This document shows, piece after piece, positions 29,881 through 32,800 of a stretch of 64,000 bases of DNA. The stretch lies in the NCBI RefSeq assembly GCF_057098645.1, contig NZ_CM169472.1, one strand, 5' to 3'. The position numbers were made by a program. Within the stretch, counting starts at the first letter, position 1. Each line of letters opens with the position of its first letter.

Positions 29881-32800
29881 TACAGCATCTCAATAAAGGC
29901 CGCGACACGGGTACTGAGCTGCCCGACATCTGAGGTGGAGTAGTCTGTTTCAATAGCGATATAAGGAATGTTGTGCTGCTGACGCACATGACGTTTAATC
30001 GCCAGCGATTCCACCGCGTAGGTATGGCACGCCTGTAAAATCACATCAACTACGCCATCGACCTGATATTCTTCCACCATCTGGCTGAGCATTTTCAGGC
30101 GCTGATCGTTCGGCGAAACACAGGAGCAGCCAATCGCCAGATATTTATCCGCCAGCGCGTCGTAGACATCGCCCGTTTCTGCCACGCATTGCTCGGTCGC
30201 TTTCGCCCCGGTGCAGTTTTCATAACCGACAACCCAGCCGCCATTCTCTTCAATCGCGCGCACCACTTTCTCTGCTGCACCGCCAATCGGGCAGCCGGTG
30301 ATTAAAATGCGCGGACGCGGGTCCAGTCGCTGGCCTTCTTCCCACTGCTGACGAATGCGGGCGGTCATCGCGTCCAGTTCATTGATCAACGCCTCTTTAT
30401 CGAACCGGAAGGTTGCACCGTAAACCACTTTCAGAATGTCGCTGCCGCTAAGCGCCGGAGGATTGAACTGCCCAAGATGATAAAAATTGGCCAGTGCGCG
30501 ACGTTCGCGGTTTTTCAGCGCAATGGCATCGCGCAGAGCATCTTCGCTAATCTCGTGCCCAAAACGTTCTTCCACCGCTTTTTGTAAGCGCAGCATCTCG
30601 GCTTTCCATAACGCACGCGAGGCATCGTCCTTAACGCTGTTCGGCAACTGCATCACATGAACAGGCTTAAACTCCGCCATGTATTCATACATTTTCTTTT
30701 TGCCGTCGCAGGTGGTTTCACCGACCACCAGATCCGAAAAGTAGAAGTAGGGGCATTTATCGGTTTTGCCAAAGCCGTAGCTGCTTTTAATCAGCGGGCA
30801 GAGGTTGCGCGGCAGATCTTTCTCCGCTTCTTCAATGGTTTCATCAGAGGTGGAACAGAGCGAAACCACAACCGCACCGGCTGCCATCGGGATCTCTTGC
30901 GGCATAAAGGTGCAGTAAGTGCCAACCAGCGGAATGCCGCGCTCCTTGAGATCCATGACGGTGAGAAAGCCTTTCTGGCGAGCTTCAGAGAACTGATCGA
31001 AAATGGCGGGTAGATCGGTGACAAGTGACATGATTTTCCTTCCCCGTACCACGGGAGATAATGAAAAGAGGCCACATTATTACCATTCTTTTAGTATGGT
31101 TTATTTGATCTCTCTCGCGGTTAGCCACTTAGTTTTTCATGGATTTCTAAAAATTGCCGAGGGGGAACAAGGCCGGGAGCTGCGACAGCAAATATAAAAT
31201 TAGCCCAATACAACCGCCAACCAGCGTACCGTTGACACGAATAAACTGCAGATCTTTGCCGATATTTAACTCTATTTGCCGCGACATATCCCGGGCATCC
31301 CAGCTTTTTACCGTATCGCTGATGTGGCGCGTCAGGAATGCGGAAAACTCAGGCGCGACGCGGTGCGCGGCTTGTTCCAGATGACCATTTAACGACGCCC
31401 GCAAGGCATCATCGGCAATTAACGTTTCGCCAAACCATTGACCCGCCCGCGCGATACGTTCTTTCACACGAGAATCTTCACTGTTGATATCCGCTTTCAG
31501 CCATTCCCGTAAATCCCCCCCACAATTCAGTGAGATAGCGGTTAAAAGCTTCATCTTCTTTCAGATAACTTTTTACGGCATCGGCTCGCGCTGCCATTTC
31601 CGGATCGTTTTTCAGCTTGTCGATCAGGGCAAAAGTGGCGCGATCAAACGCATGGCGGATCTGATGCGCGCGATCGCGGCTGATATCATCAAGCAAAGAA
31701 TTCACCGCGTCAGAAACCAACTCCGCGCTATGTTCGCCCAGCCATTCGGTGGGCAAAATTTTGGCTTTCAGCGGATGCTCGCTCTCCAGCCAGCGAACAA
31801 TTTGCTGGGCGATAAACTTGCGCGATTTATCGCGCTGGAGAAGGGCGATCAACTGTGCGATCAGCGTATCGAGCAGCACCTGATGACGATCGTTTTTGGT
31901 CATACTCTCCAGCATCAACGCACTGGTTCCGGAAAGATCGACCTTATCAATCGCCCGATGGACCGCGCGCTTAAGCAGGCGCTGAATACGCGCATCATCG
32001 GTCAGTTCAAGAAAACCGCTCATAATCTGCAACAGATGCTGACCAACGCGGCGGGCGTTTTCTGGCTGACTAAACCAGTTGCCAATCAACAACGCCGGTT
32101 CGTGACGTCGAATCAATGCCACCAGCGACTGGGTATCGAGAAATTTTTCCTGCACGAACTGACCGAGATTTTCTCCAATCCGGTCTTTATTACGCGGGAT
32201 AATCGCCGTATGACGAGAAATGATCGGAATTGGCACGCGGCGAAACAGCGCCACCACCGCAAACCAGTCCGCCAGCGCGCCGACCATCGCCGCTTCAGCA
32301 ATCGCCTTCACGCCGCTCACCCAAAAATTGGGCGGCAAAAACAGCGTAACGACAAAGGTAGCAGCGGCGATAAGCAGTAAAGAGAGCGCCAACATTTTGG
32401 CGCGTCTGAGTTCAATGAGTTTATTCATAACGTTAAGAATAGAGCCTGACGGCAGGATCGCGCAAAAATCACCGCTCCTCCGCCAGCTCGGCAGCCTGAT
32501 GTTGGCGCACGCGATTAAGCAATCCGGCCAGGGTGAAAACGACGATAACGCCCGCCACAACGGCTAACAGATGAAACGGCAAGCGACCGCCGTTAAACCA
32601 CAGCCAGCGGCCAATTTCGACCGAGACAGACATCACCATCAGGATCACCATATTCAGCGATGCGGAGACGGTCCCTTTCGGTAAGTTATTGGAAAACAGC
32701 GTAAAGCGGAATAAGGTCGGGAAGATCAAACCAATCCCGAAAGCATACAGACTGGTGCCCAGCACCGACCACAGCCAGACGTGCGGTGACAGCAGATTGC

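What the first reader, a model, noticed from the sequence alone, without database searches (positions are those of the whole stretch)
31485..31491. Frameshift in yjiN at a C7 (G7 on the coding strand) homopolymer
The DUF445 membrane protein is split across two overlapping frames exactly at a run of seven C. One fewer base would give a continuous [10 protein letters not shown] reading and restore a roughly 426-aa protein. This is either a sequencing or assembly indel, a genuine null allele, or slipped-strand on/off switching.
Basis: partly seen in the sequence, partly recalled or inferred. Interest (0 to 1): 0.45.

Follow-up and report, generated by a model that had tools for sequence, protein, structure and literature searches.

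The report
Inherited frameshift pseudogene of yjiN
An E. coli membrane-protein gene of unknown function (yjiN) carries one extra G in a run of six, and the same broken copy appears in about two dozen independent assemblies of one lineage, so it is a real but ordinary inherited pseudogene and neither a sequencing error nor a genetic switch.

Summary
The frameshift is real, but the C7 run is at window 31515-31521, not 31485-31491. yjiN lies on the minus strand at 31147-32428. All closest complete genomes (O145:H28 group) have C6 and an intact 426-aa DUF445 protein. The extra base shifts the frame after Gly304, adds 12 wrong residues and stops at 31480-31478. The 316-aa product lacks the last 122 residues, including the C-terminal hydrophobic segment.

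It is the only 1-bp indel in 64 kb against the nearest genome. The exact 316-aa product is encoded on at least 24 contigs from independent public assemblies. Several are 100% identical to the window over 4.5-10 kb. Their SNPs form a nested ladder in which G7 is among the earliest changes and never reverts.

So it is a genuine, vertically inherited null allele. An assembly artefact and on/off switching are both disfavoured.

G7 also occurs on at least 12 other yjiN haplotype groups. Three of 10 hypothetical frameshift products at other G/C runs in this window also exist in public data. Such alleles are therefore commonplace. G5 versions sit mostly in complete genomes. Interest is low.

The parts
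31515..31521 (-). Homopolymer run: C7 on the + strand, G7 on the coding strand. Intact alleles have six (codons TGG GGG GAT = W303 G304 D305). This is the site of the +1 insertion.
   Evidence: sequence; alignment to RM9872 shows C6 there; 2170 complete genomes carry the exact C6 85-mer.
31147..32428 (-). Whole yjiN pseudogene, 1282 nt against 1281 nt for the intact gene. It lies between mdtM (32469-33701) and yjiM (29880-31031).
   Evidence: Pfam DUF445 matches residues 44-417 of the restored protein.
31478..32428 (-). Frameshifted N-terminal reading frame of 316 aa: residues 1-304 of YjiN plus 12 out-of-frame residues ([12 protein letters not shown]), then a stop.
   Evidence: translation. 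The exact product is found on at least 24 public contigs.
31478..31480 (-). Premature TGA stop codon created by the frameshift.
31147..31554 (-). Leftover C-terminal frame, listed as a 135-aa ORF from an out-of-frame ATG. From 31515 downstream it encodes residues 305-426 of YjiN, including the hydrophobic segment 395-424. It is probably not translated.
   Evidence: ORF; intact protein; hydropathy. Gene callers usually left it uncalled in this haplotype; the 135-aa product was on record on only one contig.

Best explanation
yjiN in this genome is a genuine, vertically inherited frameshift pseudogene.

One G was added to the G6 run that spans codons W303-G304-D305. The inferred cause is replication slippage. 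The ribosome then reads 12 wrong codons and stops, giving a 316-aa protein. That protein lacks the last 122 residues, about 113 positions of the DUF445 domain and the C-terminal hydrophobic segment. It is therefore most likely non-functional.

The insertion happened once, near the base of a sublineage related to O145:H28 strains. It has been passed on unchanged while further SNPs accumulated, including a nonsense mutation in pga.

Shown: the insertion, the truncation, its presence in many independent assemblies, and the nested inheritance. Inferred: slippage as the cause, and loss of function.
For: (1) The window has C7. RM9872 and 19 other closest complete genomes have C6 and an intact 426-aa gene. 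Over 1501 nt this base is the only difference.

(2) Against RM9872 the 64-kb window has 25 SNPs, one 24-bp repeat-number difference and only this one 1-bp indel. The other two G7 runs, the T9 run and the 18 A7/T7 runs agree. The assembly is therefore not riddled with homopolymer errors.

(3) The exact 316-aa product lies on at least 24 contigs from NCBI GCA_029357705.1, an ENA assembly and many Logan run assemblies. L008, L012, L013, L014 and L019 are 100% identical to the window over 4.5-10 kb.

(4) The haplotypes form a ladder:
- RM9872 has G6 and the ancestral base at every site.
- L017 has G7 and the 28164 change only.
- L020 and L016 add 28464 and 33757; L016 also carries 39463, 40881 and 41356, sites the L020 contig does not reach.
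- L018, L015, L021, L019 and the window add 30279.
Every rung carries G7.

(5) The lineage marker Pga-668 (Q669*) is indexed in 25 blocks, as is YjiN-316. Every displayed place that contains both genes shows the 316-aa YjiN.

(6) Pfam DUF445 spans residues 44-417, and hydrophobic segments lie at 9-37, 42-62 and 395-424. The truncation therefore removes part of the domain and the last segment.

(7) Mononucleotide runs are known indel hot spots in E. coli, and the rate depends on run length (PMC8510543).
Against: I could not see reads for the strain that supplied the window.

The sequencing platforms of the Logan and NCBI assemblies are unknown.

Places with similar neighbouring genes are collapsed in the look-up output, so a rare G6 revertant inside the lineage could be hidden.

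Loss of function is inferred from the truncation alone. [quoted passage not shown]

No complete RefSeq genome carries this exact allele.
Confidence: 0.9

Rival explanations
1. Sequencing or assembly artefact: the strain really has G6, and the extra base is a homopolymer miscall in this assembly.
For: Homopolymer miscalls clearly occur at this very run. Strain A29 has C7, but it also has an extra G in another run of yjiN and a frameshifted mdtM. G5 versions are annotated 'frameshifted' in 95-3192, RM12367-C1 and RM12275-C1 and in 7 complete genomes of the other haplotype. The G5 product was found on only 4 contigs, 3 of them complete genomes and one a noisy contig.
Against: The same G7 allele is in at least 24 independently assembled contigs that share lineage-specific SNPs. 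Several are otherwise 100% identical to the window. It is absent from the sister O145 genomes. It is the only 1-bp indel in 64 kb. A random miscall would not follow a phylogeny.
Confidence: 0.03
2. Slipped-strand phase variation: the run acts as a reversible ON (G6) / OFF (G5, G7) switch for YjiN, as poly-G contingency loci do in other bacteria.
For: G7 occurs on at least 13 haplotype groups of yjiN that differ by 11-59 nt, so the change has recurred. G5 and G4 forms also exist. The gene borders the variable immigration control region.
Against: Within the lineage all sampled members are G7 across at least three nested nodes, with no revertant shown. The run is only 6-7 nt, below the length typical of contingency loci (my own knowledge). 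G7 is rare: 1 genome against 2170 with the exact C6 flank haplotype among complete genomes. Three of 10 hypothetical +/-1 products at five other G/C runs in this window also exist in public data, one on 761 contigs, so the recurrence is not special. YjiN is a predicted inner-membrane protein, not a typical phase-variable surface or restriction function.
Confidence: 0.04
3. The gene still works, either through recoding (ribosomal +1 frameshifting or transcriptional slippage on the G run restores the frame) or as a split gene whose two halves are made separately.
For: A 135-aa ORF covering the C-terminal part starts at an ATG that overlaps the N-terminal frame. Both halves individually match DUF445.
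Against: Orthologues are overwhelmingly a single frame, so the shifted arrangement is not conserved. By inspection, G GGG GGA could support -1 slippage, but restoring the frame needs +1. There is no in-frame stop or rare codon at the site. The purine-rich stretch before the ATG directly abuts it, which is poor spacing. Gene callers rarely call the downstream piece in this haplotype.
Confidence: 0.03

Closest known systems
yjiN pseudogenes annotated 'frameshifted' by NCBI PGAP in complete E. coli genomes (95-3192, RM12367-C1, RM12275-C1, A29)
   Same: Same gene and same homopolymer run, with a one-base length change that causes a frameshift.
   Different: Three of the four are -1 (G5), not +1. 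The G5 product was found on only four contigs, three of them complete genomes. A29 is G7 on a different haplotype and has other homopolymer indels. The window's allele is instead backed by many independent draft assemblies of one lineage.
Ordinary homopolymer-slippage pseudogenes in enterobacterial lineages
   Same: A single-base insertion in a short mononucleotide run, a premature stop, clonal inheritance, and co-occurrence with another inactivating mutation (pga Q669*) on the same branch.
   Different: Nothing material. The affected gene has no known function, so the phenotypic cost cannot be stated.
Simple-sequence contingency loci (poly-G/C phase variation in Neisseria, Haemophilus, Campylobacter, Helicobacter)
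   Same: A G/C run inside a coding region whose length sets the reading frame, with recurrent length changes across the species.
   Different: The run is only 6-7 nt. There is no length variation within the lineage. The off state is rare. Control runs behave the same way. It works like a mutational hot spot, not a switch.

Membership tests
DUF445 (Pfam PF04286) / YjiN orthologue | Full-length match to the Pfam DUF445 profile | tested here: met
   The restored 426-aa protein matches PF04286 over residues 44-417, model positions 1-367 of 368, E = 1.5e-119. The 316-aa product also carries a precomputed PF04286 hit.
DUF445 (Pfam PF04286) / YjiN orthologue | Orthologous position between mdtM and yjiM, with near-identity to annotated yjiN | tested here: met
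   Same neighbours as in RM9872, and 1281 of 1282 nt identical to its yjiN.
Frameshift pseudogene by homopolymer slippage | One-base length change in a mononucleotide run relative to intact orthologues, giving a premature stop | tested here: met
   G7 against G6, with a stop 12 codons later.
Frameshift pseudogene by homopolymer slippage | The change is in the organism, not in one assembly | tested here: met
   At least 24 contigs from independent assemblies, a nested SNP ladder, and several contigs 100% identical to the window. Reads themselves were not inspected.
Frameshift pseudogene by homopolymer slippage | Loss of protein function | not testable with these tools
   Inferred only, from the loss of 122 residues including hydrophobic segment 395-424.
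Simple-sequence phase-variable (contingency) locus | Run length varies among very close relatives or within clonal populations | tested here: not met
   All lineage members examined are G7 across nested haplotypes. Collapsed places could hide rare exceptions.
Simple-sequence phase-variable (contingency) locus | Run long enough for high-rate slippage (typically 8 or more G/C; my own knowledge) | tested here: not met
   6 nt in the intact state and 7 nt here.
Simple-sequence phase-variable (contingency) locus | Reversible switching at a high rate (about 1e-5 or more per generation) | not testable with these tools
   Needs fluctuation tests or deep read data.
Programmed frameshift / recoding site | The two-frame arrangement is conserved in orthologues | tested here: not met
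   Orthologues are a single 426-aa frame, and 2170 complete genomes carry the exact C6 85-mer.
Programmed frameshift / recoding site | A shift-prone motif of the right direction (+1), with a stimulatory stop or rare codon | tested here: not met
   By inspection, TGG GGG GGA TTT has no in-frame stop and would favour -1 slippage, not +1.

The most novel reading that the evidence does not exclude
The G6 run in yjiN could be more than a passive hot spot. Under this reading, repeated independent G6-to-G7 losses on at least 13 haplotype groups would reflect selection for switching off, or very slowly toggling, this conserved anchor gene of the immigration control region in particular niches.
Probability: 0.05. 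Interest if true: 0.35.

Novelty: already known. Interest (0 to 1): 0.08.

Why it matters
It matters little beyond annotation. The gene should be labelled a frameshifted pseudogene, not two ORFs. The allele is a usable lineage marker, together with pga Q669*, for a sublineage related to O145:H28.

The case is also a useful caution. At the same run, +1 alleles in draft assemblies track a phylogeny and look real. The -1 alleles sit mostly in complete genomes and look like deletion miscalls.

If YjiN's function is ever found, this lineage is a natural knockout.

Tried and rejected
- **Exact C7 86-mer in complete E. coli genomes.** There was no exact match for the window's haplotype. The other haplotype gave one match, A29, which turned out to be an error-prone assembly. 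Complete genomes therefore could not confirm the allele. The exact-protein look-up did.
- **A compensating second indel in yjiN.** None exists.
- **A mismatch-repair-deficient mutator background.** Rejected. There is one indel in 64 kb, and transitions and transversions are about equal (12:13) instead of transition-dominated.
- **Literature on yjiN.** Only passing mentions: an intragenic FliA site, one missense change in a transconjugant, and its role as an anchor of the immigration control region. Nothing on function.
- **Terminator scan between yjiN and yjiM.** No terminator-like site in the gap, so a polar effect on yjiML is possible but untested.
- **Whether the run is an unusual hot spot.** Hypothetical +/-1 products at five other G/C runs of the window showed 3 of 10 present in public data, so I dropped the idea that yjiN is special.
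- **Run conservation outside E. coli.** I did not run a species-wide search. It would not change the verdict.

Full report
**Observation.** The stated coordinates 31485-31491 read TGATATC. The C7 run is at 31515-31521, 30 nt away. On the minus strand the sequence is GAA TTG TGG GGG GGA TTT ACG ... TGA. Two minus-strand ORFs, 31478..32560 and 31147..31554, overlap across the run. From the annotated start at 32428, the first frame gives 316 aa ending ...[19 protein letters not shown].

**What the intact gene looks like.** The 1501 nt around the gene match 5381 of 5426 complete E. coli genomes.
- The 20 best matches, all of the O145:H28 group, differ from the window by one gap only.
- An alignment puts that gap in the run. 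The window has C7. RM9872 has C6 and an intact 426-aa gene (WP_001037381.1). Strain 95-3192 has C5 and is annotated 'frameshifted'.
- The restored protein reads ...[13 protein letters not shown].... It matches Pfam DUF445 over residues 44-417 with E = 1.5e-119.
- Hydrophobic segments lie at 9-37, 42-62 and 395-424.

The frameshift after Gly304 therefore removes 122 residues, part of the domain and the last hydrophobic segment.

**Is it an assembly error?** Three lines of evidence say no.
- Against RM9872 the whole 64-kb window shows 25 SNPs, a copy-number difference in a 24-bp repeat, and only this one 1-bp indel. The other G7 runs (23609, 61399), the T9 run (13678) and all A7/T7 runs agree.
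- The exact 316-aa product is encoded on at least 24 contigs. These come from NCBI GCA_029357705.1, an ENA assembly and many Logan run assemblies. Five of the loci are 100% identical to the window over 4.5-10 kb, including its private SNPs.
- A multiple alignment over 26700-42428 gives a clean nested ladder:
  - RM9872 is G6 and ancestral at every site.
  - L017 has G7 and the 28164 change.
  - L020 and L016 add 28464 and 33757. L016 also carries 39463, 40881 and 41356, sites the L020 contig does not reach.
  - L018, L015, L021, L019 and the window add 30279.

A miscall would not follow a phylogeny. G7 arose once, early on this branch, and was inherited.

**Is it a switch?** The evidence is against it.
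- The lineage marker Pga-668 (a nonsense mutation, Q669*) is indexed in 25 blocks, the same number as YjiN-316. Every displayed place that contains both genes shows the 316-aa YjiN. No revertant is seen across at least three nested nodes.
- The caveat is that similar places are collapsed in the output, so a rare revertant could be hidden.
- The run is 6-7 nt long, shorter than in typical contingency loci (my own knowledge).

**Recurrence across E. coli.**
- C-terminal fragments beginning [10 protein letters not shown] are the downstream call of a G7 frameshift in the 'YLSELW' haplotype. They occur on 18 and 13 contigs.
- All the fetched loci have G7. Together with the window they fall into 13 haplotype groups that differ by 11-59 nt. 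The insertion has therefore recurred, although some singletons may be miscalls.
- G5 (MGDLREW) and G4 (MNCGDLREW) fragments also exist.
- Among complete genomes with identical flanks of the S haplotype, the counts are C6 2170, C7 1 (A29) and C5 7.
- A29 has another homopolymer insertion in yjiN and a frameshifted mdtM, so its C7 is suspect.
- The G5 product of the window's haplotype is on only 4 contigs. Three are complete genomes and one is a noisy contig. RM12367-C1 and RM12275-C1 are also C5. This pattern fits deletion miscalls in long-read assemblies. That is my inference; the platforms were not checked.

**Is the run special?** I built the +1 and -1 products for five other G/C runs of 6 nt or more in genes of this window and looked them up by exact sequence.
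- Three of the 10 are in the collection: iatD -1 on 1 contig, hpaI +1 on 5 contigs, and the DUF3343 gene -1 on 761 contigs.
- Frameshift alleles at such runs are therefore commonplace, and yjiN is not an outlier.
- Mononucleotide runs are documented indel hot spots in E. coli, with rates that depend on run length (PMC8510543).

**Mechanism.**
- Shown: one extra G, a shifted frame, 12 aberrant residues, a TGA at 31480-31478, and clonal inheritance.
- Inferred: replication slippage as the cause, and loss of function.
- Recoding is unlikely. Orthologues are a single frame. The motif G GGG GGA would favour -1 slippage, not the +1 needed.
- A split gene is unlikely. The downstream ATG has a poorly spaced purine stretch in front of it, and gene callers usually skip the piece.
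- No terminator-like site separates yjiN from yjiM, so polarity on yjiML is possible but untested.

**Context.** yjiN is one of the two conserved anchors of the enteric immigration control region, and its role 'is not yet clear' (PMC12707154). There is no literature on its function.

**Verdict.** This is a real, lineage-fixed frameshift pseudogene of a kind that is well known. The same run is already annotated as frameshifted in RefSeq genomes. It is ordinary and of low interest.

Noticed in passing
window 39463 (pga, 37459-39999, + strand): The penicillin G acylase gene carries a nonsense mutation, Q669* (CAG to TAG). It sits inside a CCAGG site, which becomes CTAGG, so it looks like deamination of a Dcm-methylated cytosine. 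The yjiN-G7 lineage shares it: gene calls give 668 + 162 aa. The basal member L017 has an intact 846-aa gene.
   Followed up: partly
window 28954-28959 (DUF3343 gene, 28840-29106, - strand): This is another G6 run inside a small gene that is intact here (88 aa). Its hypothetical -1 frameshift product (57 aa) is on 761 public contigs, including complete genomes and named proteins. That makes it a far commoner homopolymer polymorphism than the yjiN one.
   Followed up: partly
window 26471-26640 and about 28164: A 24/48-bp tandem repeat of 7 copies lies in the intergenic gap between the pentapeptide-repeat gene and the SdiA-regulated-domain gene. The window has two more 24-bp units than RM9872. 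A 6-nt repeat near 28164, inside the pentapeptide-repeat gene, also varies in copy number among lineage members.
   Followed up: partly
window 1-64000: The 25 SNPs that separate the window from all O145:H28 complete genomes look like unselected mutational input. There are 12 transitions and 13 transversions, and 15 of the 25 go in the GC-to-AT direction. Five are synonymous, 11 missense, 1 nonsense and 8 intergenic. fimC, fimD (two) and fimG carry missense changes.
   Followed up: partly
window 32469-41033: The immigration control region between yjiN and yjiA holds mdtM, an Rpn-family pseudogene (internal stop at codon 40, 34168-35112), yjiR, yjiS and pga. No hsd, mcr or mrr gene is annotated in the corresponding region of RM9872.
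   Followed up: no
window 31239-31266 (+ strand, inside yjiN): This is an exact copy of the 28-nt motif reported as an intragenic FliA (sigma-28) binding site in K-12 yjiN (PMC4183435). It lies downstream of the frameshift, in the untranslated remainder of the gene.
   Followed up: no
L002, L046, L047, L027 and hits H131-H136 (complete genomes): At least 10 complete E. coli genomes carry C5 at this run. Three I inspected are annotated 'frameshifted'. The G5 product is almost absent from draft and run assemblies, which suggests uncorrected long-read deletion errors rather than real alleles.
   Followed up: partly
L016 (ENA ERZ28749823 contig_5611): This G7-bearing contig has a divergent block of about 1.5 kb over the Rpn pseudogene region (about window 33783-35465) and many scattered 1-bp insertions. 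It looks like a recombinant segment in a noisy assembly.
   Followed up: no
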